DNA of 64,000 nucleotides, taken from IMG/VR virus record IMGVR_UViG_3300027692_000003; one strand, 5' to 3'. The notes under the pieces are model-generated. The model ran no database searches, was not told the origin of the DNA, and worked only from the letters and a program-made list of their open reading frames with translations. This DNA comes from a virus. Its lineage: Duplodnaviria > Heunggongvirae > Uroviricota > Caudoviricetes. This document shows, piece by piece, positions 1 to 12,835 of the stretch. The position numbers and the translations under genes are program-made. Each line of letters starts with the position of its first letter. Position 1 is the stretch's first letter.

Positions 1-1400
1 GTGACTGAGACGGGCCATTCCGGAACCCTTCGCCGCCGGACCGCCTGCTCAGGGCGAAAGTGGCTGAGACCCGATCTTGTCGGTCAGTCCTAGGGCGGAT
101 GCAACTGAGACTGCGACCTCCCGAGGCCGGTGCCTGGAATGGCAATGACCGGAACGCCACCTCGGAGAGAACTCTGCTGAGACGTTAGACGCGAGTGCAC
201 GGCCTGGTGGCTGACGGTGCCGGGACGCCTGCTCAGGGCGAAGGTGACTGGGACCTCTGCCACGCGTGGGACGACCGGCGCGGTGTTGCTGTCCGGACGC
301 CTGCTCAGGGCAAACGAGGATGGCTGAGACAAACGCCTCTACGTGCTCAGGGTGCCTGGCAGCCGCGGGCCGGGACGCCAGCTCAGGGCGACGGCCGCTG
401 AGACCGCTCGGTCATCGCCGGGAACGATCTGCTCGGCGATCGCCGGAACGTCCGCTCAGGGCGAGCGACACTGAGACAGAGCAGATCGGAAGATCCGGAG
501 CGGGGACCACCCCCCGGCCGGAACGTCAGCCCGGAAGATGACTGAGACCTTTGAGCCAGCTCAGGCACCCCTCCTAGACGCCTGGCCGTAACGCCAGCTC
601 AGGGCGAATGCTTGTGAGACGAATGCGACGGCTACTACACCGGCCCGGTGAAAGGCGCCGGAACGCCCGCTCGGGGTGATGGTGACTGAGACCGCTCGCA
701 TGTGGTCGAGGTCGCACACGGCAGCCCGGGCCGGAACGCCAGCTCAAGGCGAGAGTGACTGAGACACCGTAGTCGTCAGTCCTCAAGTCCGCGAGCAGGC
801 CGGTCGGGGACGCCAGCTCAGGGCGACGCTTCTGAGACGGGACCGCGTGAAGGAAGCGTTCAAGACGTACGGACGCCGGAAGGCCGGCTCAGTGCGAATA
901 AGGCTGAGACGCTACCCTGCTCGTCCACTTTGACCGCAGGCCATCGACGGAATGCCAGCTCAGGGCGGCGTGCCTGAGACTCCTTCGATACCGACGACTA
1001 CCCGCTTGAGGCGCGGGCCGGAACGCCCGCTCAGGGCTTACGCGACTGAGACATAGCCGGGTTGCGTGAGTGCGGCCTGGACCCATTCGCCGAACCCGCC
1101 CGCTCAGGGCGATGCAACTGAGACGGTGATTGATGCGTCAACGATGATGTCAGTAGTTTCCTGCCGGAACGCTAGCTCAGTGCCGTTGCTGCTGAGACGC
1201 CCACAGCCCGCCGTCCACCAGGCGGAGGTGCTCGCGCCGGAACGACCGCTCAGGGCGATCGGTTCTGAGACCACCTGTCGGTGCTCGCCTTGCTCTACGT
1301 CGAGTCCACCGGAACGCCAGCTCAGGGTTATCGCGGCTGAGACTGATGCTCTGTCTCGTTACCATCGCCCGGAACGCTAGCTCAGTGCGATCGCCTTCTG
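1..1400. CRISPR. CRISPR-like array of >=20 degenerate 35-nt hairpin repeats with unique 25-39-nt spacers; truncated at window start; no cas genes in window
   Basis: Manual alignment gives period 69-75 bp. Conserved blocks CCGGAACGCCAGCTCAGGGCGA and CTGAGAC flank a 6-8-nt variable segment. CTCAG/CTGAG are reverse complements, so each unit is a hairpin with the variable segment in the loop. Intervening sequences are unique. The last copy (1365-1400) is the most diverged. Confidence 0.45.
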
Positions 1401-1602
1401 GACCAGATCCATGGAGAGAGGGCTGGCGCGCGAGTGTGGTAGCTCACGGCCTGCGGATTTTCTGATTCGGCAGGTTCCCTAGCGATTCCGGCACAGCGCC
1501 TATTGTGCTGTGACAGCCACCCTGTGGTCGCGTTGGCGGCAGGGCAGGCATCCGCCCGGGGGATGGCGACGCGAGCCCGGCGGCGGTCGTGCCGGGACGA
1601 AC

Positions 1603-1640
1603 CCTCGCGGAATCACAGCTCAGGGCCTGATCCAGCTGAG
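1603..1640. repeat. Isolated extra copy of the array repeat (cgcggaatcacagctcagggcctgatccagctgagac)
   Basis: Matches the CAGCTCAGGGC...CTGAGAC blocks about 200 bp past the array end, inside a non-coding stretch. Confidence 0.4.
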
Positions 1641-1767
1641 ACCAGTTCATCTTGGGCAGCGGCCGGCGCTTCTGGTCCCGGTGCTGCGTTGTTACTGCCT
1701 CGGTGTCCTTGTGCAGCTATTGTTGTCCTGTTCCGGGCGCGCCCGTACGTGACCGGGTGGGAGCCGC

Positions 1768-2481
1768 ATGTCACCGACGAGAAGGAGAACCCCCGCGTTG
1801 AACAGGACGCTCACCGGGATCATCACCACGACCCTCACCGCCGCAGCCCTCGCAGGATGCGGCAGCACCCACAGCCAGCATCCCGCCGCCACCCCTTCCC
1901 CGGCCCCGCCAGCCAAGGCGAGCGCGTCGAGGGTGACGAAGGCCAGCGTCACCGAGTACGCCTCCGGTGCCATCTCCGGGAATACCGCCCTCGCCGGCCA
2001 CCTGTCCATCCCCCTGGACTGGACCGGCCCGGTAGCAACCTCAGGCGTGTTCACCACGACTGGCGGCCCCCGGAAAGGGGAGCATCACGTCTTCGTGACC
2101 GCGGCAGGGGACCTGGCCGCCGTCATCACCAGCGTGACCGGCCGCAAGCCGGACCTGCTGTCCCAGTCGACATGCGCGACGGTGTACACCACAACCGTGC
2201 AGTACACCGTCGACGGGATAGACAGCACCAGGGTGTTCGCAGGGGCCTCAGGTCACGGCACCGCAACGGTCACGTTCCAGGGCGACATGCCGAAGAAGAA
2301 CGGGGCGTGCGACACGGCGAGCAGCGCCACCCCGCCGGCCGCGACAGCGACCGCCGAGTTCGCCAGCACGACCACACTCCGCCTGGCCAGCAAGACGCCC
2401 GCGCAGGCACAGGCCAGCCCCGCACCGGCGCCGTCGGCTACCGGGCCGACACCTACCACGACCGGGACGACGGCCGGATAG
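1768..2481 (+). CDS. Ala/Thr-rich lipoprotein (signal peptide with lipobox LAGC)
   Basis: N-terminus MSPTRRRTPALNRTLTGIITTTLTAAALAGCGS. Low-complexity Ala/Pro/Thr C-terminus. Confidence 0.55.
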   Translation: MSPTRRRTPALNRTLTGIITTTLTAAALAGCGSTHSQHPAATPSPAPPAKASASRVTKASVTEYASGAISGNTALAGHLSIPLDWTGPVATSGVFTTTGGPRKGEHHVFVTAAGDLAAVITSVTGRKPDLLSQSTCATVYTTTVQYTVDGIDSTRVFAGASGHGTATVTFQGDMPKKNGACDTASSATPPAATATAEFASTTTLRLASKTPAQAQASPAPAPSATGPTPTTTGTTAG

Positions 2482-2483
2482 GT

Positions 2484-2525
2484 GCTGCCGCGGCAGCGGC
2501 CAGCCCGAGCCGCTGCCGCAGCCCG
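2484..2525 (+). terminator. GC-rich palindromes (GCTGCCGCGGCAGC and flanking) after the lipoprotein stop
   Basis: Perfect 14-bp palindrome immediately 3' of the stop codon. No T-run. Confidence 0.2.
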
Positions 2526-2660
2526 CACGTCGCGCACCACAGCCCTCGCTCATCCTGCTCGGGCAGGCACGGGCAGAACACGTCGGCATGGCTGATCCCG
2601 CACGGTGTCACCGTGGCACGCCACTGCCAGTACCATCGCCGGGCTTCCCGCAGCTGCCAC

Positions 2661-2960
2661 TCAGCGAGCACGGCCTGGCCAGCGGATGACACTGGCAGCC
2701 AGGGAGCTGCCGTTACCTACCATCAGAGGCATGGATCTCCTTGAGGACCCGGCCTCGAAGCCGCCCGCGGCCAGGAGGTCAGTCCAGCCCTTGCGGTCCT
2801 CGGGGCGGCTGGCAGTCGCGGACACCCCGTTGTCCGTGAACTCGCCGATGACTTCCCAGCCCCGGCCGGCGGCGTACTTCCTCCCGGCGTCAAGCTGCCG
2901 GTCGATCGACACGGACTCTTCCTTGGTGACACTGAGCCGGGCATACAGGACACAGCGGTG
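2661..2960 (-). pseudogene. Serine recombinase (resolvase) N-terminal catalytic-domain fragment, truncated
   Basis: VLYARLSVTKEESVSIDRQLDAGRKYAAGRGWEVIGEFTDNGVSATASRPEDRKGWTDLL matches the resolvase catalytic-Ser motif (YxRxS...Q). The expected DxLVVxxLDRLxR segment and the recombinase domain are absent, and the frame degenerates. Confidence 0.5.
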
Positions 2961-3318
2961 CACGCCTCCTGACGGGTTCACGGGCGGCGCTCCAGGCAGT
3001 CCCGGCACCCGAACGCGGGTGAGCTGCACACCAGGGCGCCTAGCCGGCCGCAGCTCCCGCAACTGGACACCTCGCCCGCTGGGAGCGCCCAGAGCACGAG
3101 ATTGTCCGTCCTCCCGCAGGTACTACAGGAGGGCCTGCCGTCCGCAGCCTTGCAGTCGGGAGCAAGGAGCATCATGGTCAGGAGCCGCTCGGCCAGCATC
3201 TCGTCGATGACGGGCAGCGGCCCGCTGGCACTCACAGCACAGTCCCGTCTCCAGTTGGTAGCCGGCTGGTCACGATCCTGAGGATACGCCAGGGCCGGAT
3301 GTGACAGTATGCAGTCCC

Positions 3319-3588
3319 ATGACGACACTGATCGAGGATGTGGAAGTCCCGGCCGGGCACGGCATGATGAGCACCCTCAAACCGGAGCACGGCGACCTGC
3401 GGGTCATGTGGGACCCCGACGTCGACGACGAGGTCGAAGCCGCCAGGGCACAGTTCAACGAGCTCCGGGCAAAGGGATACCTCGCCTACAGGGCGCAGGG
3501 CAGGCGCGGTTCCCGCGGGGAGGTCATCCGCGAGTTCGACCCCGATGCGGAACGGATCATCCTGGTCCGCCAGAACGTCGGCGGCTGA
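3319..3588 (+). CDS. hypothetical protein
   Basis: ORF MTTLIEDVEVPAGHG...; balanced charged composition, unlike wrong-frame Arg-rich artefacts. Confidence 0.45.
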   Translation: MTTLIEDVEVPAGHGMMSTLKPEHGDLRVMWDPDVDDEVEAARAQFNELRAKGYLAYRAQGRRGSRGEVIREFDPDAERIILVRQNVGG

Positions 3589-4180
3589 CCGGTGCCCGCG
3601 CTGCTCACGGCCCCCAGCCCGCTGTACACCCCCCACGGGCGGCACGGCCCTGACGACGTTCACCAGCGACATCGTGTGGGCCAGCTGGAATACGACGTAC
3701 AGCACGACCAGCAGCTGGGGCAGCAACAGCCTGTACACCCTCAGTGCCGGGTACACGACGTCGAGCACGATCTGGACCGGGTGGAACACCGCCTGGCGGG
3801 AGTCCGCGGAACAGCGTGCCCGCAGGGAGCAGCACCAGGCCCAGGCCGCCAGCCGCCACCAGGCCAGGGCCGTCGCTTCCGCCCGCGCGGAGGAACTCCT
3901 CCTCGCCCTCCTCACCGAGGAGCAGGCCGCGACCTACCAGGAGCACGGCTGGTTCGAGGTCCGGGGGAGCCGCGGGGGACGGTGGCGGATCCGGAACCGC
4001 GGCCAGTCCGGCAACGTCGACCTGATGCCGGAAATCGGGGAGGAACGCCAGGCAACCTACTGCGCCCACCCGCCGGATCATCTACCCGACGCGGACGCCT
4101 GGATCGCCCAGATGCTGCACCTCGTCACCGACGAGGAAGGATTCCGGAAGGTAGCGAACCTGCACTGGCGGGCAGCCTGA
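3545..4180 (+). CDS. hypothetical protein (start uncertain; Ser/Thr/Trp-rich N-terminus)
   Basis: C-terminal 120 aa (EELLLALLTEEQAATYQEHGWFEVRGS...) look protein-like. Upstream part is low complexity. Confidence 0.3.
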   Translation: MRNGSSWSARTSAADRCPRCSRPPARCTPPTGGTALTTFTSDIVWASWNTTYSTTSSWGSNSLYTLSAGYTTSSTIWTGWNTAWRESAEQRARREQHQAQAASRHQARAVASARAEELLLALLTEEQAATYQEHGWFEVRGSRGGRWRIRNRGQSGNVDLMPEIGEERQATYCAHPPDHLPDADAWIAQMLHLVTDEEGFRKVANLHWRAA

Positions 4181-4193
4181 CTCCTGATGCACA

Positions 4194-4601
4194 ATGGAAC
4201 TCATGTACGAGTCACTGGATCAGTCCGCTGCGGCTACCGGTGACCGGATCCTCGCGGTTCAGATCCTCGCCACTGCCATCCGCCATGCACGGTTCGAGCC
4301 GCTGCCCCCGGATGAGGAAGCCGCCGCGGTGGCTGAGCTCCAGCAGCTGGCGGATGGCCGGGCTGGCCTCCTCGCCCGGGTCGCCGGGCTGTGCCTCGGG
4401 TTCAGCCCGGCCGGGCTGCCCGGTGAGGCAGACCGCAACGCCGGGGCACTGTGCATTACTGCCGGCGCGGATCCGGCCCTCATCCCGTACTGGACCCGGA
4501 TAGGGGAGGCACGGGCGCGGACGGCGAGAATGCCTGTCCCGCAGCTGGGCCACGCCCCCGCGCGAAGCTACCGGTTAACTGCGGCCGGCCCGCCGGCTTA
4601 A
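4194..4601 (+). CDS. hypothetical protein
   Basis: ORF MELMYESLDQSAAATGDRILAVQILATAIRHARFEPLPPDEEAAAVAELQQLADG... Confidence 0.4.
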   Translation: MELMYESLDQSAAATGDRILAVQILATAIRHARFEPLPPDEEAAAVAELQQLADGRAGLLARVAGLCLGFSPAGLPGEADRNAGALCITAGADPALIPYWTRIGEARARTARMPVPQLGHAPARSYRLTAAGPPA

Positions 4602-4829
4602 CCGTTTGCCGCCGACGTTCCTGATGGTGATCACGTGCGTACCCGACTTGGGGTAGGACTGGATCCCGGCCACATAGCAGTCGCCGTCCGTCACCAGGTT
4701 GTAGTCGTCCTTGATCAGCCGTGTCTCGGTGTCGCCGGTGCCGGTGTCTTCGGCGGTTACCCGCGTGCCGTTTCCGTCGCTCACCCGGCCCGCCCGCCAT
4801 CGGATGCCCACAGTTCCTCGGGTCCGCAC
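4575..4829 (-). CDS. hypothetical protein
   Basis: ORF ...RLIKDDYNLVTDGDCYVAGIQSYPKSGTHVITIRNVGGKRL. Confidence 0.4.
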   Translation of the reverse strand: MRTRGTVGIRWRAGRVSDGNGTRVTAEDTGTGDTETRLIKDDYNLVTDGDCYVAGIQSYPKSGTHVITIRNVGGKRLSRRAGRS

Positions 4830-5032
4830 GATATCCGGAACGCGGGCAGGTCATGGGTCCAGCCGAGGAACACCTCCACCGTGTTCCGGGCCGCGCCCGG
4901 GAGGAGCTCAGGTCCGGGAGCGTCCTGCTCGTAGATGCCTCGCACGAAGATACCGCTGTACCGTTCGCCGTCCACGGTTTCCGGCACCACGTCCAGGACC
5001 ACTTTCACGACATCGCCCCTGTTAACGGCCAT
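4781..5032 (-). CDS. hypothetical protein
   Basis: ORF MAVNRGDVVKVVLDVVPETVDGERYSGIFVRGIYEQD... Confidence 0.4.
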   Translation of the reverse strand: MAVNRGDVVKVVLDVVPETVDGERYSGIFVRGIYEQDAPGPELLPGAARNTVEVFLGWTHDLPAFRISCGPEELWASDGGRAG

Positions 5033-5066
5033 CAGGCCCGTACCGTCCTCTCCGCTGCCGCCGCTG

Positions 5067-5360
5067 TCATTGCCGTGCCTCAGCTGGTCCGGGAAGGTTC
5101 TCAGCCCGTACCTGTTCTGCGGTCGCGAGGAACTCTTCCACGACCGTGGCGTCGCATGGCTCGCCCGGCCATTCCGTCCACGCGTACAGGAGCCGGGTCA
5201 GGCGCCGCCACCCTGTATCGGTCATGCCGGGCACGGATGTGCCGACCCGGATGTGCCGGGATACGGCCTGCTGGCCCAGGCCGGTGAGCGCGGCGATCAT
5301 CTCCTGTGCCGGGAGCCGGACCTGACCTCGCGGGATCCGGGAGTAGACCGTCAGGATCAC
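5067..5360 (-). CDS. hypothetical protein
   Basis: ORF MILTVYSRIPRGQVRLPAQEMIAALTGLGQQAVSRHIR... Confidence 0.35.
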   Translation of the reverse strand: MILTVYSRIPRGQVRLPAQEMIAALTGLGQQAVSRHIRVGTSVPGMTDTGWRRLTRLLYAWTEWPGEPCDATVVEEFLATAEQVRAENLPGPAEARQ

Positions 5361-5711
5361 CTGGGCTGCGTCACCGAGGTACCGCAGCTCGCCGATGACG
5401 GGGGGATCACCGTCCCGTCATCCGGGGTCCGGAGGATCGCCCACGCGCCATCAGCTCGCCCGTACAGGGCGTAGTGGTTGCCGGCCATGCCTTATCCTCG
5501 CCGTCCGGTCGGTGCGGCTGGTTTTCTGGGTTCCCATACCGCCCATAGTCCGCATCCGCGGCACTGCCGCTGGGTGCAGGTGGCTCGCATGCGGTCCGCC
5601 CACTCGGACCACTGCAGGTAGCCGGCGGGGCTATCGGTGTGCGGCTCGCATTCCTCCGGATACGCCGGCGTCGCCGTGCAGCCGGTCATCGTGATGCGCT
5701 GCGGTATCACG

Positions 5712-5951
5712 CTAGTCAACCGGACCCCGGACAGCGATCCGTACCCCGCGTGATTCCAGCTCACTGATGATGTCCTGCTCGGTGCGGCCGTAGTGGAGCA
5801 CGATCTCCATCGCGGGCAGCCCCATCTCGGCCATCACGGCCGCGGTGACCAGGATGGGTTCCCCGGCGGCCAGCCGGGTGACGTTCTCCCCGGCGAGGCC
5901 GAGGAACAGGACCGGCAGTCCCTGCTTGTTCCTCGCCGTCCACTTGATCAT
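5712..5951 (-). CDS. hypothetical protein (start at internal MIKWTARNKQ)
   Basis: The upstream part of the track ORF is Ala/Arg-rich artefact. Downstream 80 aa are protein-like. Confidence 0.35.
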   Translation of the reverse strand: MIKWTARNKQGLPVLFLGLAGENVTRLAAGEPILVTAAVMAEMGLPAMEIVLHYGRTEQDIISELESRGVRIAVRGPVD

Positions 5952-6138
5952 CGCAGCTTCCTTCTCATCCCCCGGTACTGGGCACTGTGGGGGCACCTGC
6001 AGGCCAGGGTGCCGTCGGACAGGGCGTGCCACAGCCAGACGGGCCACAGCGGCGACAGCCACCCGAGCCACCAGCCGGTGCCGTCGGGTCTGCGGTCCTC
6101 AGCTCCCACCGGGCACCCCTGCGGCGGGGAGGTGCTGA

Positions 6139-6603
6139 TCAGCCCGTGCCGCTGCCACCGGCGGTCTCCTCTTCCTGGCCCGTGTACAGGATCCCGGCCC
6201 GCAGCCGCCGCCACACCTCGACGGCTTCCTCCCGCACCGTCATGCCCGGTGTCCCGCCGGTGCCCCCGTGACAGCGGCACCGGCCCTCATGATGGGCGAG
6301 GCTCCCGGTGACGTTCGCGAACAGGCATTCCTTGTGGACGTGACGGATCTCAGGCGGCGCGTCTTTCCCGAGCAGCGGCATCGCCTGCCCCGAGTCACCC
6401 GCGGCCTCGTCGAAGACCTCTTCGCAGTACAGGCACGACTCACCTGCGGGGAATGCCTTGCGCATCTCCTCGATGAGCCGGCCGGCTTCGTCATAGCAGA
6501 CATACGACCACCACGGCGGCCCGAACCAGCCGTGGTTCTCCCGCCGCACCTCAGCCGGCAGCCCGTCATACCGGGTGCTGACCGTACCTGGCGTGTCGCT
6601 CAC
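6139..6603 (-). CDS. hypothetical Cys/His-containing protein
   Basis: ORF MSDTPGTVSTRYDGLPAEVRRENHGWFGPPWWSYVCYDEAGRLIEEMRKAF...CLYCEE...HKECLF. Confidence 0.45.
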   Translation of the reverse strand: MSDTPGTVSTRYDGLPAEVRRENHGWFGPPWWSYVCYDEAGRLIEEMRKAFPAGESCLYCEEVFDEAAGDSGQAMPLLGKDAPPEIRHVHKECLFANVTGSLAHHEGRCRCHGGTGGTPGMTVREEAVEVWRRLRAGILYTGQEEETAGGSGTG

Positions 6604-6642
6604 AGTCCACGAGACTACGCGGCAGCCCCCGGCGCCAAACCC

Positions 6643-6894
6643 TCAGGTCCAGGCCATGGCGAACAGTCTCCTCAGGCTCGACGCCACCGAATCCTTGCTC
6701 AGCCCCGCCAGCTCGCCGAGCTCGGCCAGCGACGCGTCCGGATGCTCGATCCGCAGCCTCGCGGCTGCCGCGAGCGGAGGCGGGCACCGGTCACCGAGGC
6801 TGTCCAGCGCAGCCTGAGCGCGGACGCTGGCCTCAGCGGCAGCGGCCCGCTGCCGTTCCCCGTTGCTCGCGGCGAGCCGGCTGGTCCCGGTCAT
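6643..6894 (-). CDS. small HTH DNA-binding protein (WhiA C-terminal-like / sigma region-4-like helix-turn-helix)
   Basis: LRIEHPDASLAELGELAGLSKDSVASSLRRLFAMA resembles the WhiA C-terminal HTH. Confidence 0.45.
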   Translation of the reverse strand: MTGTSRLAASNGERQRAAAAEASVRAQAALDSLGDRCPPPLAAAARLRIEHPDASLAELGELAGLSKDSVASSLRRLFAMAWT

Positions 6895-7208
6895 GACCGC
6901 GGATCCGTCCCGCCGGCACCGTCCGGGCCGGGGTCGCCGTCCAGGTCGTCATCGAGGACCGCCGCGGCGTCGGCACGCCGGAGTTCACCGGGCTGTCCGT
7001 CATCGCCGGGAGGGCGGGGCTGGGCGGTGTCCATCACGTACCTCGCTGAAAGTGGGGGGCGGCTGCTTCAGTCCTCAATCTAACCGGGGTCTGCCGGCCA
7101 CCGGCGCAGCCCCTAGTAATAAGGTCACGCGGCCGGGGGAGGGGGCGGTGCTCTCGCCACGAGCCCGGCTGCCGGGTACTGGCGCCGCCGGCCCGTAGCG
7201 TTGACATC

Positions 7209-7439
7209 GTGCGTAACACCGACATCGCCGCCATCGCCCGCCTCCGGGCTTCCTTCCGTAACGGGACCGCACGGCAGGCACGCCTCGCCGCCGGGATCAG
7301 CATGGCAGAGATCGCATCTGCCACCGGGGTATCCCGGCAGGCCATCGGAAGCTGGGAACGATGCCGGAGCATCCCGTCCGCCGGGCATGCCCTCGCCTAT
7401 GCGAAGGCACTCGCCGCGGCGACGGCAGCGTCAGCGTAA
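7209..7439 (+). CDS. XRE/Cro-C1-type HTH transcriptional regulator (GTG start)
   Basis: AGISMAEIASATGVSRQAIGSWE is a canonical HTH_XRE motif. Lies immediately upstream of the integrase. Confidence 0.6.
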   Translation: MRNTDIAAIARLRASFRNGTARQARLAAGISMAEIASATGVSRQAIGSWERCRSIPSAGHALAYAKALAAATAASA

Positions 7440-7589
7440 CGCGCAAGCAGGGCGCAAGCATCGCGGTAACCATCCGGAAAGCAGCGAGCCGCCATACAAA
7501 GATAATTACTGTTATATTGGAGTCGACCCTAGTCTAGTTCTGATGGCAGGAAAACCGGGCTGATAGCCGCCAGGCGGAGGTGGAACCGC
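7440..7589. promoter_or_regulatory. Locally AT-rich intergenic region upstream of int (promoter and possible attachment-site region)
   Basis: gataattactgttatattggagtcgaccctagtctagttctgatgg is strongly AT-rich against a ~70% GC background. A short direct repeat gcgcaagca x2 lies at 7441-7460. Confidence 0.3.
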
Positions 7590-8645
7590 GTGACCGGAAT
7601 CGAGATCTGCCGGCCCGTCCCGGGCGGAGACGACGCGCGGCCATCGGCCGAACGGCTCGTGCTCAGCTGGCTGGCCACCAAGAGATCCGCGAACACCCGG
7701 TTCGGCTACGGCGCCGATCTCGGCGTGCGGCTCCTGCGTCCCGGCGCGGCCACCATCGGCGAACCACGCCCCGCCCGCGCACCGGACTGGCTCAGCTACT
7801 GCCGGATGGCCGGCGTCGATCCGCTCGGCGCGGTACTCGAGGAGCATGCCGCGGTCTGGATCCGCGGCATGGAAGCGGCCGGGCTCTCCCCGGCCACCGT
7901 CGCACGCAAGCTGTCAGCAGTGTCGTCCTGGTATGCATGGCTGAAGAGAAAAGGCCACGTCGCTGCCAACCCAGCCGAGGACCTGCCCCGGCCCTACGTC
8001 AACCCGGACATCTCCACGACTCCCGGCCTGACAAGGGATCAGGCACTCGCGATGCTCGCGGCCGCCGATGATGCGCCCTGGCCGCAGTCCGCCCGCAACG
8101 CCGCGCTGACGGCGCTCCTCCTGTTCACGGGGGCGCGGGTCAGCGAGGCCTGCGGCGCCGCCCTGGCCGACCTCGGGATGGACCGCGGCCACCGGGTGCT
8201 GTGGGTCACCCGCAAGGGCACTGAAGGCAGGCAGGCACTCGGGCTCCCGGCACCGGCGACCATGCGGCTGGACGCCTACACTGCCGGACGCGCCGACCTC
8301 GAGCGGCTGCCCGCCATCGCCGGGACCCGGGGACGTGACCGGCCGCTGATCGCCACATCCACCGGGAAGCCGATGCGGCCGGCCGACGTGTGGGAACTCA
8401 TGCGGCGCCTGGGCCGCGCCGCGAAGCTGCCCCCGGAACTGGTCGCGAGGATGGGCTCCCACTCAATGCGGCACAGCTTCGCCACCCTCTACCTTGACGC
8501 CGGCGGGAACCTGCGGGACCTGCAGGACGCCATGGGCCACAAGGACCCGCGGACGACACGCCGGTACGACCGGTCGCGGGGCGCCCTTGACCGCTCGCCG
8601 GGCTACAGGCTCGCTGAGTACCTCTCGGACGGAGACCGGGCATGA
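7590..8645 (+). CDS. int: tyrosine site-specific recombinase / phage integrase (Xer-like)
   Basis: C-terminal catalytic motifs ...GARVSEA..., HSMRHSFATLYLDAGGNLRDLQDAMGHKDPRTTRRYDRS (R..H..R..Y). GTG start. Confidence 0.85.
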   Translation: MTGIEICRPVPGGDDARPSAERLVLSWLATKRSANTRFGYGADLGVRLLRPGAATIGEPRPARAPDWLSYCRMAGVDPLGAVLEEHAAVWIRGMEAAGLSPATVARKLSAVSSWYAWLKRKGHVAANPAEDLPRPYVNPDISTTPGLTRDQALAMLAAADDAPWPQSARNAALTALLLFTGARVSEACGAALADLGMDRGHRVLWVTRKGTEGRQALGLPAPATMRLDAYTAGRADLERLPAIAGTRGRDRPLIATSTGKPMRPADVWELMRRLGRAAKLPPELVARMGSHSMRHSFATLYLDAGGNLRDLQDAMGHKDPRTTRRYDRSRGALDRSPGYRLAEYLSDGDRA

Positions 8646-9979
8646 CAGCCACCCCTAAAGCGCTGACGGCGTGGACGGAGCTGAACGACCGGCAGCAGGG
8701 AACGCTGCGGGTCATCTACCAGATCGACCAGGCGAACGAGAAGTGGCGGCGGCAGCGCGGCACGAGCGGCAGCTACGACACGTCGCCCGCGTCGGAGTGG
8801 CGGCGCATCGACTTCGCGCACGACCCGTCCGGGCTGGCCACGACCGATATGCAGCTGCGCCTGGACACCGCGGGCTGGCATAACCAGGGGAACGGATCAA
8901 CGGTCGCCGCGCTCGCTGACCGTGGCATGCTCACCCGCGGGGAACGCGGCACGCTTCTCGGGGTGATGCTCACGGTCACGCTGACCCGCGAAGGACGCGC
9001 AGCCGCCCGCGCCGGGCTGTCCCTCCAGCCCGGCGGCGCCCCGAAAGCGGGGCTCCGCGAACGCGCGTGGGAAGTGCTCGCGCTGCTGTGGGCGGCCGGG
9101 CAGCGCGGCGAGACCCTGAAGTGGGGGTACTCGGCGACGATCGAGTTCGTGCTCATTGCCAAGCATGTGCCGGCGCTCGCCGAGCGGGTACCCGGCGGTT
9201 ACACGATCACCAGCCGCGGCCAGGACTTCTACCGGCAGCAGTACGCCGCGCACACCGCCGCGCACCCGGCCGTGCGCGCACCCCACCCCGACGGAGCAGC
9301 CGCCGAGCCGTGGCCCGCGGACGCCGGCCAGATCCTGGCCCGGCACCGCCGCCGCTACACGGAGCTGAGCATGGCATGGCAGGCCGAATGGGACGCGCAC
9401 AAGGACGCCGCAGCCGAAGCCAGCACTGCCGCACCGGACACGGGCGCTCTGCCCGTCGTCGTCGCCCAGATGGCCGCGGCCCGGCACCAGCTGTGGTGCG
9501 GCACCGCACAGCAGCGTGCGGCCCTGGCCGCCGCCCAGGCCGCCGAGCTGCACACCCTGGCCACCCGGGCGGCACGTACCTACGCTGTCGCGGCCCTGGC
9601 CGTATTCCGTGCCGCCGTCACCCGCACCGACCCGCTCGCCGGGCTCGGGGAACCACGCGACGACGACACGTGGGATGAGCCGCGCCTCGAGCCGCCGGCG
9701 GTAACCGGCATCCACGCCATCGATGAGCCCGCCCGGCGGCTGCACTCCGCTGCCGTCGGCGTGCCGGTGCCCCGGCGCGGCCCCGCCCCGAAACGGCGGC
9801 GCTCCAGCCGTCCCGTCACGGCACCGGAACGACCCGGCCAGCAGCTGGCACTCCTGGCCGGCTTCCTGAAAGAGCACACAGACGGGGGTGCTCTCCTGCG
9901 CCGACTCCACCCGGATTGCGGGGAGACGAAGGGCTGCCTAGAGCCAGCCGAAATGCTCAGCGGTATTACGCAGGACTGA
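8642..9979 (+). CDS. hypothetical 445-aa protein translationally coupled to int (ATGA overlap)
   Basis: The start ATG overlaps the int stop. Ala-rich, no recognisable domain. Confidence 0.6.
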   Translation: MTATPKALTAWTELNDRQQGTLRVIYQIDQANEKWRRQRGTSGSYDTSPASEWRRIDFAHDPSGLATTDMQLRLDTAGWHNQGNGSTVAALADRGMLTRGERGTLLGVMLTVTLTREGRAAARAGLSLQPGGAPKAGLRERAWEVLALLWAAGQRGETLKWGYSATIEFVLIAKHVPALAERVPGGYTITSRGQDFYRQQYAAHTAAHPAVRAPHPDGAAAEPWPADAGQILARHRRRYTELSMAWQAEWDAHKDAAAEASTAAPDTGALPVVVAQMAAARHQLWCGTAQQRAALAAAQAAELHTLATRAARTYAVAALAVFRAAVTRTDPLAGLGEPRDDDTWDEPRLEPPAVTGIHAIDEPARRLHSAAVGVPVPRRGPAPKRRRSSRPVTAPERPGQQLALLAGFLKEHTDGGALLRRLHPDCGETKGCLEPAEMLSGITQD

Positions 9980-10104
9980 GAGTTGCAAAGTACCCTCCAA
10001 ATATTCCAGAAATATTCACGGGGCGCCCCAACCTTGTGCTGGCCAGAATGCCTGTAGGTTCCGGGGCGGATCTTGCAGTGGAGGGTGGAGGTTCCCCGCG
10101 AGGG

Positions 10105-10135
10105 CTGGGCCGCTCTTGTCCCGGCCGGGCCGCTT
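10105..10135 (+). terminator. GC hairpin (cccggccggg palindrome) followed by TTTT
   Basis: gtcccggccgggccgcttttacacgg lies ~130 nt after the 445-aa ORF, inside a 375-bp non-coding gap between convergent operons. Confidence 0.35.
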
Positions 10136-10355
10136 TTACACGGCATCCCGGGAATCAGGCTGGCGGGGGCAGCCGCCCTCATCATAGCGAGCGGGGTGTG
10201 GCTCACACGCCGTCCGGAGTGCTGCTACGCCCCGCTAGGCCGGCCCATGTCCGGCACCGAGGCGGGGAGACGCGGGAACCTGGCGTCTTACCCCGGCTAG
10301 CGTCTTGCGGTAGCTCCCCAGCGGTAATCCTGCGGTCAGCTTAGCGGCCCGTTGC

Positions 10356-10790
10356 TCATCCCGGTGACCGGCCGAACCCGGCGGTCGATCCCCACTCGTC
10401 GATCATCGGCGTTTCCTCTGGGCTCCACGTCACGCTGACCGGTATGCGGGGCACGCACAGAGCGCTCGAACGCTCCCACCTGTGGATGCCGTTGCTCAGC
10501 ATGACCGGTCCGTCGCCTTTGATGCACGCCTCCGGCGCGAACTCGTGGCGGATGCCCCCGGCGTCGCTGATGAGGCGGGTCATGGTCTCCCGGTCGAAGC
10601 CCGGTTTGTGCTTTTCCCACAGGTGCGGATCGGCGGCATGCTCGCGGACTGTCCGCAGCCGGTCGGCGGTCGCGAGGTAGTGGAGCCAGTCCCCGATCTC
10701 GGACGTGTCGTACCACTTGTGACAGTCGCACTCTTGCCCGCTCACCGCTGCTCCTCGCTGCTGTCTTCTGGCTGGTCCAGCACGATCCAC
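10356..10790 (-). CDS. hypothetical protein
   Basis: ORF ...WYDTSEIGDWLHYLATADRLRTVREHAADPHLWEKHKPGFDRETMTRLISDAGGIRHEF... An alternative overlapping frame (10336-10884) looks like artefact. Confidence 0.4.
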   Translation of the reverse strand: MDRAGPARRQQRGAAVSGQECDCHKWYDTSEIGDWLHYLATADRLRTVREHAADPHLWEKHKPGFDRETMTRLISDAGGIRHEFAPEACIKGDGPVMLSNGIHRWERSSALCVPRIPVSVTWSPEETPMIDEWGSTAGFGRSPG

Positions 10791-10954
10791 CGGTCATGGC
10801 CGGTAGCCGAAGTGTGCTCTGATGCCCACCTGCCACGTTCGGCCGGGGTCCCGAAGGGGATGGGGAGCGGCCGGTCAGGGTCACCGCAGTCGCGGCACAC
10901 TAGCAGGTAGAAGACCTTCGACCCGGTAGTCAGGTGCGTGTCGTCAGCGTCCAC
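10742..10954 (-). CDS. small CxxC protein with acidic tail
   Basis: ORF MDADDTHLTTGSKVFYLLVCRDCGDPDRPLPIPFG... Confidence 0.4.
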   Translation of the reverse strand: MDADDTHLTTGSKVFYLLVCRDCGDPDRPLPIPFGTPAERGRWASEHTSATGHDRWIVLDQPEDSSEEQR

Positions 10955-11234
10955 GCCGCCTCCTCTCCCGAAGTGCCTGCTCGCTGTCCTCGCCGTGCTC
11001 GGGGCATGTCTTCACGGTCAGCATCCGCACCCATCCCTCGCCCATGCTTATCCCGTACAGCACCCCCAGTCCCTTCCATTCGTACGGGCAGGTGCAGCCG
11101 GTGATGCCGAGCCACGCCAGGTCATCCTCAAGGCTAATGTTCGGGGTGCCCATGCCCGCCGTCTCCTCCTCTTCACCCGGTTCCGCTGACGGCGCCTGTA
11201 CTCCCTGCCGTTGATGGGGAGCGGCCGGGGCCAT
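10944..11234 (-). CDS. hypothetical protein
   Basis: ORF ...MGTPNISLEDDLAWLGITGCTCPYEWKGLGVLYGISMGEGWVRMLTVKTCPEHGEDSEQAL. Confidence 0.3.
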   Translation of the reverse strand: MAPAAPHQRQGVQAPSAEPGEEEETAGMGTPNISLEDDLAWLGITGCTCPYEWKGLGVLYGISMGEGWVRMLTVKTCPEHGEDSEQALRERRRRGR

Positions 11235-11570
11235 GCGCAGTTAGCCCGCGCGAGGATCGCCGGGAGCCCGGCGGCCAGCCCGCGCACGTACGTGCGGAGA
11301 GCCTCGATGAGGGCGCCACAGATCTCGTCGTCAGTCACTTACCCGTCCTCTGGCCTGGGGGCTCCAGCCTGACCTCAGTCCGGTCTCCAGCCGGGTAGGC
11401 CAGTGCCAGCACGGCGTGGACGAGAGAGCCTGTTCCCGGAGCGCCCGCCGCCGCCACGGCCGCACCGACGGCCGTGCAGACAGGTTCACGAGTTCCTCGG
11501 CGGTACGCCAGTGCCATCCGGCCGACGCGGCGGCGCGCGGGAACGGCGGCTCCTCGCTCATGGCGCCACG

Positions 11571-11819
11571 CTAGCGGGTCACCATGACAGCTACCCACGC
11601 CGCGGCACCAAGCGGGATGGCGATGGCGAGGAAAAGCGCAGCGAGGAAGAGGGCCAGTCTCCACCGGGCCTGTCGCCACAGCTCAGGCCAGGTCTGGGCG
11701 CGGCCTTCAGGTGTCATCGGTGTCGCTGCGGCCGGCCTGAATCGCCCTGATGTCGCACGGCCTGCCGCATGATGCGCATTCCCACGGCGGGTATGAGTAC
11801 GTTTTCCGCCATGTCGCAC
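11571..11819 (-). CDS. small membrane protein (C-terminal TM helix; start may be internal MTPEG)
   Basis: ALFLAALFLAIAIPLGAAAWVAVMV hydrophobic segment. Confidence 0.35.
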   Translation of the reverse strand: MRHGGKRTHTRRGNAHHAAGRATSGRFRPAAATPMTPEGRAQTWPELWRQARWRLALFLAALFLAIAIPLGAAAWVAVMVTR

Positions 11820-11955
11820 CGGCTCCGCAGCAGGCGCTCTCGACCTTGATCGTCACTGCGTCCTTGCGCCTCGGGAGGACCTCCCGGAAGGGGGCGCCGG
11901 ACATCTGGGAGAGCGGGAAGCCTCCGGGTGGCCACGGATGGAGTTCCTCGCTCAC
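11707..11955 (-). CDS. hypothetical Cys-containing protein
   Basis: ORF MSEELHPWPPGGFPLSQMSGAPFREVLPRRKDAVTIKVESACCGAGATW...CASCGRPCD. Confidence 0.35.
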   Translation of the reverse strand: MSEELHPWPPGGFPLSQMSGAPFREVLPRRKDAVTIKVESACCGAGATWRKTYSYPPWECASCGRPCDIRAIQAGRSDTDDT

Positions 11956-12145
11956 GACGCCACGCTAGCGCGCCCGGAACGCCGCAGGTACCCGGCAGCC
12001 TCCCGCGCGACCGCTCTCTGCTCGATGCGCTTTGCCGCCCTCGCTCCCATCGACCCGCCACCCGAGCAGTCCGGTCCCGGCTCACGGCCGGCGCGTGTAC
12101 CGGGGCAGCAGCCTGGCACCTGCCAGCGTCCCAGCATCCGCGCCA

Positions 12146-12835
12146 TCACGTCACCGGGTGCATGCCGGGAGCGTTCCGCGTCATCACGAGCCGGTAGTTG
12201 TGCGCCTCTACCGCCTCGTTCACCAGGTCTGCCGTGTCGAGCGTCCCTATGAACACGTCCTCGTAGTGGTCTCCTGCAGGGGTCACGGCGTAGATGGTCC
12301 GGTCGTTGTGGGTGCCGGTACGCCAAGGCAGCGAGGAGAGGTCGGCGGGCTGCGCCGTGGCCTGCCGCTGCTCGGCGTAGCCTCGCAGCATCTCCAGCAC
12401 CTTCGCCCGCATGTCACCTAGCGTGGGGCCGCACTCCTCCAGAGCCCGGACCCCGATGCCGTCACCTTCGCGGAGCATCCCGAGCAGCAGGTGCTCTGTC
12501 CCGATGTAGTTGCAGCCGAGCGGGAGGGATTCCCGCAATGCCAGCTCGCAGGCTTTCTTGAGCCGGGGCGTGAACGGGATGTGGCCGCACGGCTTCTGCT
12601 GGCCGATGCCGATCCGCGCCACCACGGCCTCTCGCACCGCTGCCTCGGTGACCCCGAGGGCGATCAGCGCCTGCCCGGCGACGCCCTCACCCTCCCCGAT
12701 CAGCCCGATAGCGAGGTGCTCGGTGCCGATCCAGTTGTGGTTCAGGTCCCGCGCCGCCTGCTGCGCAAGCACGATGACCCGCCGTGCCCGGTCGGTGTAG
12801 CGCTCGAACATCAGGCTGTCCTCCATTCCGCTCAT
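12146..12835 (-). CDS. ClpC1 N-terminal-domain (double Clp_N repeat) homologue with ~85-aa C-terminal extension
   Basis: MFERYTDRARRVIVLAQQAARDLNHNWIGTEHLAIGLIGEGEGVAGQALIALG...IPFTPRLKK...CNYIGTEHLLLGMLREGDGIGVRALEECG is almost collinear with the ClpC/ClpC1 NTD (MFERFTDRARRVVVLAQEEAR...NYIGTEHILLGLIHEGEGVAA...). No AAA+ modules follow. Confidence 0.75.
   Translation of the reverse strand: MSGMEDSLMFERYTDRARRVIVLAQQAARDLNHNWIGTEHLAIGLIGEGEGVAGQALIALGVTEAAVREAVVARIGIGQQKPCGHIPFTPRLKKACELALRESLPLGCNYIGTEHLLLGMLREGDGIGVRALEECGPTLGDMRAKVLEMLRGYAEQRQATAQPADLSSLPWRTGTHNDRTIYAVTPAGDHYEDVFIGTLDTADLVNEAVEAHNYRLVMTRNAPGMHPVT

What the first reader, a model, noticed from the sequence alone, without database searches (positions are those of the whole stretch)
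1..1400. Tandem array of >=20 degenerate 35-nt hairpin repeats with unique spacers and loop-confined variation, orphan of cas genes
Period (~72 bp), repeat length (35) and unique 25-39-nt spacers are CRISPR-like. Unlike functional CRISPR arrays, every repeat differs, and the differences concentrate in a 6-8-nt segment that forms the loop of a conserved CTCAG/CTGAG stem. The 22-nt 5' block and the CTGAGAC block are maintained. That looks like selection for an RNA hairpin with a variable loop rather than random decay, so it may be a non-canonical guide or structured-RNA array and not a dying CRISPR. The array runs off the window start. A serine-recombinase remnant lies 1.3 kb away. No Cas genes occur within 64 kb downstream.
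Basis: seen in the sequence. Interest (0 to 1): 0.75.

Follow-up and report, generated by a model that had tools for sequence, protein, structure and literature searches.

The report
Old tail of a Cas12m CRISPR array
The degenerate repeats at the window's start are the old far end of a 68-unit CRISPR array whose Cas12m gene lies just outside the window, so this is a known kind of immune system, and its repeat variation follows the shape of the guide RNA.

Summary
The array is real: 21 units in window 1-1403 plus one at 1606-1642, with a period of 71-74 nt. It is not an orphan and not a new kind of RNA array. Two independent metagenome contigs, each 100% identical to the window over 12.5 kb, extend it upstream. 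There the same array continues into about 8 variant repeats and then about 30 perfect 36-nt repeats (GTCGAAACGCCAGCTCAGGGCGACGGTTTCTGAGAC). Upstream of those lie a conserved ~320-nt leader and a 674-aa gene homologous to the solved Cas12m structures (E 6e-52 and 1.5e-46; PADLOC Cas12u1 2.4e-80).

The repeat belongs to the published type V-M repeat family. The invariant terminal AC corresponds to A(-2) and C(-1), which the protein reads. The variable 6-8 nt is the connecting loop.

Column heterogeneity is highly significant (chi-square p = 3e-17), and the helix covaries (A-U, G.U, G-C). Relatives show the same long degenerate tails.

No protospacers and no adaptation genes were found. This is a new member of a known kind, and interest is modest.

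The parts
1..1403 (+). Leader-distal, degenerate part of a type V-M (Cas12m) CRISPR array. It holds 21 repeat units with spacers of about 36-39 nt.
   Evidence: Units (repeat start-end)..1-11 (cut by the window edge), 35-70, ~76-111 (5'-truncated), 148-183, 219-254, 291-330 (loop insertion), 369-404, 442-477, 517-548 (internal deletion), 585-620, 657-692, 730-765, 804-838, 875-910, 946-980, 1017-1052, 1090-1124, 1163-1198, 1236-1271, 1308-1343, 1368-1403. The array is continuous with 47 further units upstream on contig L004 (window position = L004 position - 8203). Local consensus: GCCGGAACGCCAGCTCAGGGCGA + 5-10 nt + CTGAGAC.
1606..1642 (+). Last recognisable repeat unit (GCGGAATCACAGCTCAGGGCCTGATCCAGCTGAGAC), separated from the array by a 203-nt gap.
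   Evidence: The GCTCAG/CTGAGAC elements are intact, while the other helix (stem 1) keeps only 1 of 4 pairs. A counterpart unit sits at the same place in the syntenic relative L015 (12431-12466), next to the aligned flank.
1404..1605 (+). Gap between the array and the last unit. It may hold fully decayed units.
   Evidence: The best local alignment to the repeat consensus scores 18, against a shuffled mean of 17 and maximum of 28, so it is not significant. A suggestive unit at 1479-1514 has CACAG...CTGTGAC, which would keep the helix through a double change. Treat this as tentative.
1798..2481 (+). Lipoprotein gene flanking the trailer end of the array (TTG start preceded by AAGGAG). It is not part of the CRISPR system, but it was the anchor that recovered the source contigs.
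   Evidence: It has a signal peptide with an LAGC lipobox. An exact-sequence look-up found L004 and L005. It is syntenic in L015.
2661..3062 (-). Serine-recombinase (resolvase) N-terminal remnant. It marks the edge of the mobile-element region that follows the CRISPR locus.
   Evidence: Pfam PF00239, E 3.6e-08, covering only profile positions 2-57 of 145.

Best explanation
Window 1-1403, plus the unit at 1606-1642, is the old, leader-distal tail of one 68-unit type V-M CRISPR array. The rest of the system lies just upstream of the window on the same strand. In window coordinates, cas12m (674 aa) is at about -5902 to -3878, a conserved ~320-nt leader follows it, and the first repeat is at about -3553.

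Inferred from the characterised Cas12m systems: the array is transcribed from the leader. Cas12m binds each repeat-derived scaffold and processes the transcript into crRNAs that need no tracrRNA. The complex binds PAM-flanked DNA without cutting it, because its RuvC active-site triad is H-D-D rather than the usual D-E-D, and this blocks transcription or replication of invaders.

Each repeat folds as stem 1 (CGCC/GGCG) plus a pseudoknot helix (CUCAG/CUGAG), a G.A pair, and a terminal C(-1) read by His-Arg. The connecting loop and the 5' tail make few or no base-specific contacts.

New units are copies of the leader-proximal repeat, so the young units are identical. The old units have sat in place long enough to diverge. 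Positions the protein or the fold needs have stayed fixed or changed in a compensatory way, and the loop has randomised.

Shown here: array continuity, effector homology, repeat-family membership, helix covariation, and uneven conservation. Inferred: transcription, processing, binding-only interference, and whether the old units still yield working guides.
For: 1. Continuity.
- L004 and L005 are 100% identical to window 1-12481 and to each other across the array.
- L004 shows about 30 perfect repeats, then 8 variant repeats (CTCGG/CCGAG), then increasingly degenerate units running into the window.

2. Effector.
- phmmer against the PDB gives GoCas12m 8PM4 at E 6e-52 and MmCas12m2 8HHL/8HIO at E about 1.5e-46, both over nearly the full length.
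- PADLOC Cas12u1 matches at E 2.4e-80. Pfam gives a weak Cas12f1-like TNB match.
- H378, D564 and D660 align to the H-D-D triad, and H330-R331 align to Mm His269-Arg270. H330, R331, D564 and D660 are invariant across the clade and H378 is nearly invariant.

3. Repeat.
- Published V-M repeats such as Ms GUAGCAACGCCUAGCUCAGGGGCUCGAAAACUGAGAC and Go GUGUCAACGCCAGCGCGGAGGCGUCAAAUCCGCGAC share the sequence blocks and architecture of this repeat.
- My parse of the Mm repeat reproduces the cryo-EM description of stem, pseudoknot, G.A pair and C(-1).

4. Helix covariation on 15 consensus repeats: 96% of cells paired, 4 of 5 pairs with compensatory changes, 0 of 500 shuffles reaching that, and 10-41% paired when the register is slid.

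5. Within the array the fourth helix pair runs A-U, then G.U, then G-C, then A-U.

6. Conservation in the 19 regular window units follows the scaffold map, chi-square p = 2.6e-17. Helix arms plus AC against the 5' tail gives Fisher p = 6.5e-5.

7. There is no anti-repeat near the effector.

8. Relatives (L015, L016, L013) have the same conserved leader and the same layout of perfect repeats followed by a degenerate tail.
Against: - No spacer matches anything in the phage, plasmid, viral-contig or metagenome collections, or in the window itself. Immunity function and PAM are therefore unverified.
- No expression data exist.
- The effector is only about 28-32% identical to characterised Cas12m proteins, so its biochemistry could differ.
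- Single-unit folding energies are no better than shuffles.
- The two tail spacers shared with L015 have diverged as much as the flanks (76-85% identity). This argues that the old spacers themselves are not under selection, and it sits awkwardly with the idea that the old units are still useful guides.
- The young part of the array contains a scaffold gap (N run) and duplicated spacers, so the unit count there is approximate.
Confidence: 0.9

Rival explanations
1. The tail is a dead relic. The old units no longer make useful guides, and the conserved GCTCAG...CTGAGAC reflects only constraint on the leader-proximal repeat at the time each unit was copied (a frozen record), together with too little time for decay. 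It is the same CRISPR array, but with no present function for the window part.
For: - The tail has indels, truncated units and repeat fragments inside spacers.
- Stem 1 is weakened in several units.
- The tail spacers shared with L015 have diverged about as much as the flanks.
- There is a positional signal along the array: whole array r = 0.48, p = 0.001; tail r = 0.23, p = 0.007.
- Loop variants change stepwise: CGGTTT, GGGTTA, GTGTTA, GTGTTG, GTGTGA, GAGGTGA.
Against: - If in-place decay were neutral at the roughly 10% per lineage implied by the L004/L015 flanks and shared spacers, about 25 changes would be expected in the 13 scaffold-critical columns of the 19 units. About 10 are seen (binomial p = 4e-4).
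- Three of the five substitutions in the helix arms keep pairing through a G.U wobble.
- Most differences between tail units are unit-specific rather than ordered. So they arose in place, yet they spared the helix.
- The same sparing recurs in L015 and L016.
Confidence: 0.35
2. One reading: a non-CRISPR or non-canonical array of structured RNAs with variable loops, independent of Cas proteins.
For: Within the window alone there are no cas genes. There is no Rfam match. The helix is conserved and the loop is variable.
Against: The array is physically continuous with perfect repeats, a leader and cas12m. The repeat is a member of the published V-M repeat family. Each conserved and each variable element has a counterpart in the solved Cas12m crRNA scaffold.
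Confidence: 0.02
3. The tail is a separate, older array that was fused to the active array by recombination, rather than the same array growing at one end. For example, it could have come from a former copy of the system with the GCCGGAAC-type repeat.
For: - The 5' tail of the repeat switches from GTCGAAAC (young) to GCCGGAAC (old).
- The CTCGG/CCGAG block is flanked on both sides by CTCAG/CTGAG units, and there is one chimeric unit (CTCAG...CCGAG at L004 7221-7256).
- Block duplications show that recombination occurs inside the array.
Against: - Transitional units link the zones: GTCGAAAC units at L004 7445 and 7593 are interleaved with GCCGGAAC units, and G.U intermediates lie between the A-U and G-C blocks.
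- L015 and L016 show the same gradual layout next to the same conserved leader.
- Either way it would still be V-M CRISPR material.
Confidence: 0.1

Closest known systems
Type V-M (formerly V-U1) CRISPR-Cas12m systems: MmCas12m2 (PDB 8HHL/8HHM/8HIO; PMC10442227) and GoCas12m (PDB 8PM4; PMC11013384)
   Same: - A single compact effector with a RuvC-like domain and a zinc ribbon, an H-D-D triad, and the conserved His-Arg pair that reads C(-1).
- The array lies directly downstream on the same strand.
- Repeats are 36 nt with G...GAC ends, stem 1, a 5-6 bp pseudoknot helix and a G.A pair.
- There is no anti-repeat or tracrRNA.
- No adaptation genes were found in the sequence available.
   Different: - The effector is only about 28-32% identical to characterised members and is longer (674 aa against about 596). 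It sits in a sparsely sampled clade known only from metagenomes.
- The array is far larger: 68 units, against 2-repeat mini-arrays in the Mycobacterium loci I examined.
- The connecting loop is 7 nt rather than 4.
- There is a conserved ~300-nt leader with an invariant hairpin.
Degenerate trailer-end repeats of ordinary CRISPR arrays (general knowledge of CRISPR array polarity)
   Same: The oldest, leader-distal repeats are the ones that have mutated, while the young repeats next to the leader are identical.
   Different: Here about 30 consecutive units are degenerate rather than the last one or two. The decay is strongly structured by the crRNA fold. Parts of the tail are shared by lineages whose flanks are about 20% diverged.
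Orphan CRISPR arrays
   Same: Seen through the 64-kb window alone, no cas gene accompanies the array.
   Different: The array is not an orphan. The cas12m gene ends about 320 nt before the first repeat of the same array.
TnpB/omega-RNA and Cas12f (evolutionary relatives of Cas12m)
   Same: They share the RuvC plus zinc-ribbon (TNB) core. PADLOC Cas12f models also match at E 3e-73, and there is a weak Pfam TNB hit.
   Different: This locus has a true repeat-spacer array and a short 36-nt scaffold. There are no transposon ends and no long omega-RNA or tracrRNA. The best match is the Cas12u1/Cas12m model.

Membership tests
Type V-M CRISPR-Cas (Cas12m) | Effector homologous to Cas12m, with a RuvC-like domain and a C-terminal zinc ribbon (TNB) | tested here: met
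   PDB phmmer gives 8PM4 at E 6e-52 and 8HHL/8HIO at about 1.5e-46, over nearly the full length. PADLOC Cas12u1 matches at 2.4e-80. Pfam PF07282 matches weakly. The cysteines C633 and C650 are invariant and C653 is nearly invariant.
Type V-M CRISPR-Cas (Cas12m), clade 2 (Cas12m2) | Non-canonical H-D-D RuvC triad | tested here: met
   H378, D564 and D660 align to the Go and Mm triad residues. D564 and D660 are invariant and H378 is nearly invariant in the clade alignment. The triad definition is taken from PMC10442227 and PMC11013384.
Type V-M CRISPR-Cas (Cas12m) | CRISPR array adjacent to the effector, with repeats of about 36 nt from the V-M repeat family | tested here: met
   The first repeat lies 324 nt after the stop codon on the same strand, followed by about 30 perfect 36-nt repeats. 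It aligns with the 8 published repeats.
Type V-M CRISPR-Cas (Cas12m) | crRNA scaffold made of stem 1, a pseudoknot helix, a G.A pair at -2, and C(-1) | tested here: met
   Structure parse. Covariation count: 96% paired, 4 of 5 pairs compensatory, 0 of 500 shuffles. The G before the helix, A(-2) and C(-1) are present in all 15 consensus repeats. Compared with the cryo-EM description.
Type V-M CRISPR-Cas (Cas12m) | No tracrRNA (crRNA-only guide) | tested here: met
   No anti-repeat complementarity above the shuffled null was found upstream of the array in L004, L015 or L016. This is a computational test only.
Type V-M CRISPR-Cas (Cas12m) | No adaptation module (cas1/cas2) in the locus | tested here: inconclusive
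   None was found in the 2.3 kb upstream of cas12m on L004 or among the window ORFs scanned. The scaffold ends about 1 kb further upstream. The syntenic relative L015 has type I-E cas1e/cas2e with its own 29-nt-repeat array about 7 kb upstream.
Type V-M CRISPR-Cas (Cas12m) | PAM-dependent DNA binding without cleavage, and effector-dependent pre-crRNA processing | not testable with these tools
   This needs biochemistry. No protospacer was found from which to infer a PAM.
Active CRISPR array (window portion on its own) | Near-identical repeats | tested here: not met
   All 21 window units differ from each other. Pairwise differences are about 9 of 36 positions.
Active CRISPR array (window portion on its own) | Spacers that match mobile elements | tested here: inconclusive
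   No credible matches were found. Window spacer 693-729 is 33/37 identical to a young spacer of the same array (L004 6525-6561), which suggests the same target was sampled twice.
Orphan CRISPR array | No cas genes associated with the array | tested here: not met
   cas12m lies directly upstream of the same array.

The most novel reading that the evidence does not exclude
The roughly 30 degenerate units are not junk. Selection keeps their pseudoknot helix, G.A pair and C(-1) intact, so they still load into Cas12m. On this reading, arrays of this binding-only effector act as very long-lived guide archives, shared in part by lineages about 20% diverged, in which repeats drift freely wherever the scaffold tolerates it. 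The tails in this array and in L015 and L016 would then be a natural mutational scan of the Cas12m crRNA scaffold.
Probability: 0.35. Interest if true: 0.5.

Novelty: new member of a known kind. Interest (0 to 1): 0.28.

Why it matters
The main value is that it resolves an apparent oddity. The "orphan hairpin array" is the old end of a Cas12m CRISPR array whose effector gene lies just beyond the window edge. This is a useful caution for window-based scans.

There are three secondary points:
- It documents a divergent, metagenome-only Cas12m clade (674-788 aa, about 30% identical to the characterised enzymes). The arrays here are much larger than the mini-arrays of the mycobacterial loci.
- More than 100 distinct natural repeat variants across three loci show which scaffold positions tolerate change: the loop, the 5' tail and one helix pair that toggles between A-U, G.U and G-C. 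The positions that do not change are the other helix pairs, the G.A pair and C(-1). This could guide scaffold minimisation for Cas12m base and epigenome editors.
- The array preserves the intermediate steps of compensatory helix evolution in order along its length.

Tried and rejected
- Tandem Repeats Finder misses the array. It reports only a 25-nt duplication at 404-457.
- Rfam gives nothing at E up to 10 on 1-3000. A gathering-threshold run on the window plus L004 gives only a tRNA.
- The strict repeat pattern has 0 hits in the genome and metagenome collections. A loose pattern in viral contigs gave 3 single chance hits. The source organism and close relatives are therefore absent from those collections.
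- The first look-up of the lipoprotein, using the ATG start, failed. The TTG start succeeded.
- Spacer target searches all came back negative:
  - blastn of both halves of the array against phages and plasmids. The only hits are to a conserved SDR-oxidoreductase motif at about 85% identity.
  - All spacers against the rest of the window and L004. The best hits were exact matches of 13 nt or less.
  - A twice-sampled protospacer against viral and metagenome contigs. The seven metagenome hits share only the 20-mer.
  - Three young spacers against viral contigs.
- Single-unit RNA folding gave z-scores from -2.2 to +0.8, which is not informative for a short pseudoknot.
- The sigma-70 promoter scan of the leader found none.
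- The anti-repeat (tracrRNA) search was at null level.
- The search for decayed units in 1404-1606 was not significant.
- Look-up of the 95%-identical effector P0001 returned nothing on record.
- tblastn of the prophage tail-tube protein against phage genomes gave no match, so the host genus is not identified.
- I considered and rejected protein-coding repeats (the period is not a multiple of 3), and iterons, centromere sites or integron attC sites (wrong geometry, and the array is continuous with a cas12m-linked array).
Full report
**Observation.** The first 1.4 kb of the window holds a regular array.
- There are 21 units between 1 and 1403, the first cut by the window edge, plus an outlying unit at 1606-1642.
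- The period is 71-74 nt, each repeat is about 36 nt, and spacers are mostly 36-39 nt.
- The local consensus is GCCGGAACGCCAGCTCAGGGCGA, then 5-10 variable nucleotides, then CTGAGAC.
- CTGAGAC occurs 20 times in the 64-kb window. Nineteen copies are in the array, all on the + strand, against 9.9 expected by chance for the whole window.
- Tandem Repeats Finder misses the array, and Rfam has no match.
- The array is not only substituted. It has a 5'-truncated unit (about 76-111), a unit with an internal deletion (517-548), one with a loop insertion (291-330), and four spacers that contain repeat fragments.

**Is the variation uneven?** Yes. The figures below are for the 19 regular window units, measured as divergence from the local consensus.

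| Repeat element | Changes / cells | Divergence |
|---|---|---|
| CTCAG arm | 3/95 | 3% |
| CTGAG arm | 6/95 | 6% |
| Terminal AC | 0/38 | 0% |
| Other repeat columns | n/a | 12-26% |
| Six-column variable segment | 40/84 | 48% |

- A random column would give about 57%, so the variable segment is essentially randomised.
- The three-class chi-square test gives p = 2.6e-17.
- Helix arms plus AC against the 5' tail gives Fisher p = 6.5e-5.
- Fifteen of the 19 units keep all five CTCAG/CTGAG pairs when G.U is counted as a pair.

**Extending the window.**
- The strict repeat pattern has no match in 185,579 species-representative genomes or in the JGI metagenome contigs.
- An exact-sequence look-up of the flanking lipoprotein, using its TTG start at 1798, found two ENA metagenome contigs, L004 and L005. 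Both are 100% identical to window 1-12481, and to each other across the array from L004 5746 onward. An assembly artefact is unlikely.
- L004 carries 8.2 kb upstream of window position 1.
- There the same array continues, 68 units in all. Going upstream from the window, the units become less degenerate.
- Next come 8 units of a variant repeat, GTCGAAACGCCTGCTCGGGGCAACGGTTTCCGAGAC.
- Then come about 30 perfect copies of GTCGAAACGCCAGCTCAGGGCGACGGTTTCTGAGAC.
- These are preceded by a 324-nt non-coding leader and a 674-aa gene on the same strand (L004 2301-4325, which is window -5902 to -3878).

**The gene is cas12m.**
- Against the PDB sequences it matches GoCas12m (8PM4) at E 6e-52 and MmCas12m2 (8HHL, 8HIO) at about 1.5e-46, over nearly its full length.
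- PADLOC's Cas12u1 model (V-U1 is the former name of V-M) matches at 2.4e-80.
- Pfam gives only a weak Cas12f1-like TNB hit, which explains why the gene carried no annotation.
- In the alignments, H378, D564 and D660 occupy the positions of the non-canonical H-D-D RuvC triad.
- H330-R331 occupy those of Mm His269-Arg270, which read C(-1) of the crRNA.
- H330, R331, D564, D660 and two zinc-ribbon cysteines are invariant across ten clade members, and H378 is nearly invariant.
- Identity to the characterised enzymes is only about 28-32%. The nearest relatives, at 45-52% identity, are all unnamed metagenome proteins.

**The repeat is a V-M repeat.**
- Table S5 of PMC11013384 lists eight Cas12m repeats. 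Examples are Ms GUAGCAACGCCUAGCUCAGGGGCUCGAAAACUGAGAC and Go GUGUCAACGCCAGCGCGGAGGCGUCAAAUCCGCGAC.
- The repeat here, GUCGAAACGCCAGCUCAGGGCGACGGUUUCUGAGAC, shares their blocks and their layout.
- The cryo-EM paper (PMC10442227) describes a 36-nt scaffold with these parts: a disordered 5' end, a stem, a pseudoknot helix (-22..-17 pairing with -8..-3), a non-canonical G:A pair at -2, and a base-specifically read C(-1).
- My parse of the Mm repeat reproduces that description exactly. The same parse of this repeat gives:
  - stem 1: CGCC/GGCG
  - pseudoknot helix: CUCAG/CUGAG
  - a G.A pair
  - C(-1)
  - a 7-nt connecting loop

**Covariation.**
- I counted pairs on 15 consensus repeats: this array's three forms, four from relatives, and the eight published repeats.
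- The five-pair helix is 96% paired, and four of the five pairs show changes on both sides. None of 500 shuffles reaches this, and sliding the register drops pairing to 10-41%.
- Inside the L004 array the fourth pair runs A-U in the window units, G.U at L004 7622-8214, G-C at 6853-7407, and A-U again in the young units.
- Across 109 distinct units from four loci, that pair is A-U in 60, G.U in 19, G-C in 16 and A.C in 10. The other pairs are nearly fixed. Those units were selected by anchoring on the same motifs, so the fixed positions are partly ascertained.
- Single-unit folding energies are not better than shuffles. That is expected for a short pseudoknot.

**Context.**
- No anti-repeat exists near the effector in this locus or in two relatives, which fits a crRNA-only system.
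- No adaptation genes are present in the 2.3 kb upstream on L004.
- None are present among the scanned window ORFs either. Those encode a resolvase remnant, a tyrosine integrase, a large serine recombinase, a Ro60-like protein, and phage tail and lysis proteins.
- The scaffold ends about 1 kb further upstream.
- In the syntenic relative L015, a type I-E cas1e/cas2e pair with its own 29-nt-repeat array lies about 7 kb upstream of cas12m. Its geometry differs from the V-M array, so how this array acquires spacers remains open.
- No spacer matches the rest of the window, the phage or plasmid collections, or the viral and metagenome contigs I could scan. Targets and PAM are unknown.

**Is the long degenerate tail peculiar to this array?** No.
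- L015 (effector 82% identical over the part it retains) has 11 perfect repeats followed by about 30 mutually different units.
- L016 (52% identical) has 9 perfect repeats followed by about 25 degenerate ones.
- In L013 (51% identical) every unit differs from the first onward.
- All of them keep GCTC[A/G]G...C[T/C]GAGAC, and all share a conserved leader of about 300 nt.
- Among 18 Cas12m loci in species-representative genomes, all 32% identical or less to this effector, none has three perfect repeat copies. Mycobacterium loci have 2-repeat mini-arrays that differ in the 5' tail. A Phytoactinopolyspora locus has 9 heterogeneous repeats toggling the same helix pair.
- Imperfect repeats are therefore common in V-M arrays. 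What stands out here is the size of the array.

**How old is the tail, and is it still constrained?**
- L004 and L015 are syntenic across cas12m, the leader, the lipoprotein gene and the downstream element, at 78-84% nucleotide identity.
- Two tail spacers and the terminal flank are shared and collinear. The shared spacers are 76-85% identical.
- Part of the tail therefore predates the split of these lineages, and the old spacers have drifted about as fast as the flanks.
- Repeat similarity falls with distance along the array: whole array r = 0.48, p = 0.001; tail alone r = 0.23, p = 0.007.
- Loop variants change stepwise (CGGTTT, GGGTTA, GTGTTA, GTGTTG, GTGTGA, GAGGTGA). Part of the variation is therefore a record of how the leader-proximal repeat changed over time.
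- Most differences between tail units are unit-specific, however, so they arose in place.
- If in-place change were neutral at about 10% per lineage, roughly 25 changes would be expected in the 13 scaffold-critical columns of the 19 units. About 10 are seen (binomial p = 4e-4), and three of the five helix substitutions keep pairing through a wobble.
- I read this as moderate evidence that the scaffold-critical positions are still under purifying selection in the tail. This is an inference. The drift of the shared spacers argues the other way, and I give the 'dead relic' reading 0.35.

**Mechanism.**
- Shown: one array, a cas12m gene and leader directly upstream, a V-M-family repeat with a covarying pseudoknot helix, and conservation that follows the solved scaffold.
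- Inferred from the characterised systems (PMC10442227, PMC11013384): transcription from the leader; effector-dependent, RuvC-independent processing into crRNAs of about 50-60 nt; PAM-dependent DNA binding without cleavage by the H-D-D enzyme; and interference by blocking transcription or replication.

**Verdict.**
- The finding is a real feature and was accurately described.
- It is the degenerate, leader-distal tail of a type V-M CRISPR array, not an orphan or a new class of RNA array.
- It is a new member of a known kind, from a divergent and so far uncharacterised Cas12m clade.
- The residual interest lies in the unusually long tail shaped by the crRNA scaffold, and in what that says about the tolerance of the Cas12m scaffold and the longevity of these arrays.

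Noticed in passing
window 29348-31033 (+): A Ro60-like gene (TROVE domain E 2.7e-17 plus Ro60 vWA domain E 1.8e-30) sits inside the prophage-like region. No Y-RNA-like family reached Rfam's gathering score anywhere in the window.
   Followed up: partly
window 2661-3062 (-), 7590-8645 (+), 23279-24913 (-): Three recombinase genes lie next to the CRISPR locus: a resolvase N-terminal remnant, a tyrosine integrase and a large serine recombinase. They are followed by phage tail-tube, GH25 lysin and very large tail-like genes. This suggests nested mobile elements and a prophage at this site.
   Followed up: partly
L004 4326-4649 (window about -3877 to -3554): The ~320-nt leader between cas12m and the first repeat is conserved across effectors that are only 40-52% identical. 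It has a TTGACA box just after the stop codon and an invariant GCGAGCG...CGCTCGC hairpin whose distal part covaries. Its function is unknown, and no sigma-70 promoter was called.
   Followed up: partly
L004 5203-6742 (young part of the array): Several spacers are duplicated within the array: copies at 5358 and 5651; at 5435, 5728 and 5872; at 5507 and 5800; and at 6088 and 6671. This indicates block duplications. There is also a 100-nt N gap at 5221-5320 with the same spacer on both sides. L005 confirms the part from 5746 onward.
   Followed up: partly
L004 5358-5398 and 5651-5691: A duplicated spacer resembles, at 81-89% identity, the conserved motif region of SDR-family oxidoreductase (FabG-like) genes on many plasmids. 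It is not an exact protospacer.
   Followed up: no
window 693-729 and L004 6525-6561: A spacer in the degenerate tail and a spacer in the young zone are 33/37 identical with the same end points, as if the same protospacer was sampled twice from related targets. The shared 20-mer occurs in 7 metagenome contigs, but similarity does not extend beyond it.
   Followed up: partly
L015 7554-9590: In the syntenic relative, cas12m lacks about 1 kb that encodes the RuvC C-terminal part and the zinc ribbon. The called gene is 506 aa and reads into the leader and array. Even so, 11 perfect repeats follow it. This is either a recent inactivation or an assembly problem.
   Followed up: no
L015 4-94 and 249-1546: A type I-E module (cas1e E 3e-107, cas2e E 2.5e-19) with 29-nt repeats at 62-nt spacing lies about 7 kb upstream of the V-M locus in the relative. 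Whether it supplies spacer acquisition for the V-M array is unknown.
   Followed up: partly
L016 4721-5334: The nine perfect young repeats of this relative carry an A.C mismatch in the pseudoknot helix (CTCAG...CCGAG). Older units in the same array have G-C or G.U at that pair.
   Followed up: no
window 12-35, 331-369, 405-442, 549-585: Four 'spacers' in the tail contain fragments of the repeat itself, for example GCCGGGAACGATCTGCTCGGCGA at 417-439. This points to partial duplications or deletions inside the old array. Tandem Repeats Finder's only hit (404-457, period 25) is one of these.
   Followed up: partly
L004 6-77 (window about -8197 to -8126): A tRNA gene lies about 2.2 kb upstream of cas12m, and tRNA-like sequence is also present upstream in L015. 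The CRISPR locus and the mobile elements sit in what looks like a tRNA-linked integration hotspot.
   Followed up: no
L028 10256-10874 (Phytoactinopolyspora limicola): A Cas12m array in an isolate genome has nine repeats, several of which differ from each other. The same helix pair toggles between A-U, G.U and G-C (GCGTAG/CTACGAC, GCGTGG/CTACGAC, GCGTGG/CCACGAC).
   Followed up: no
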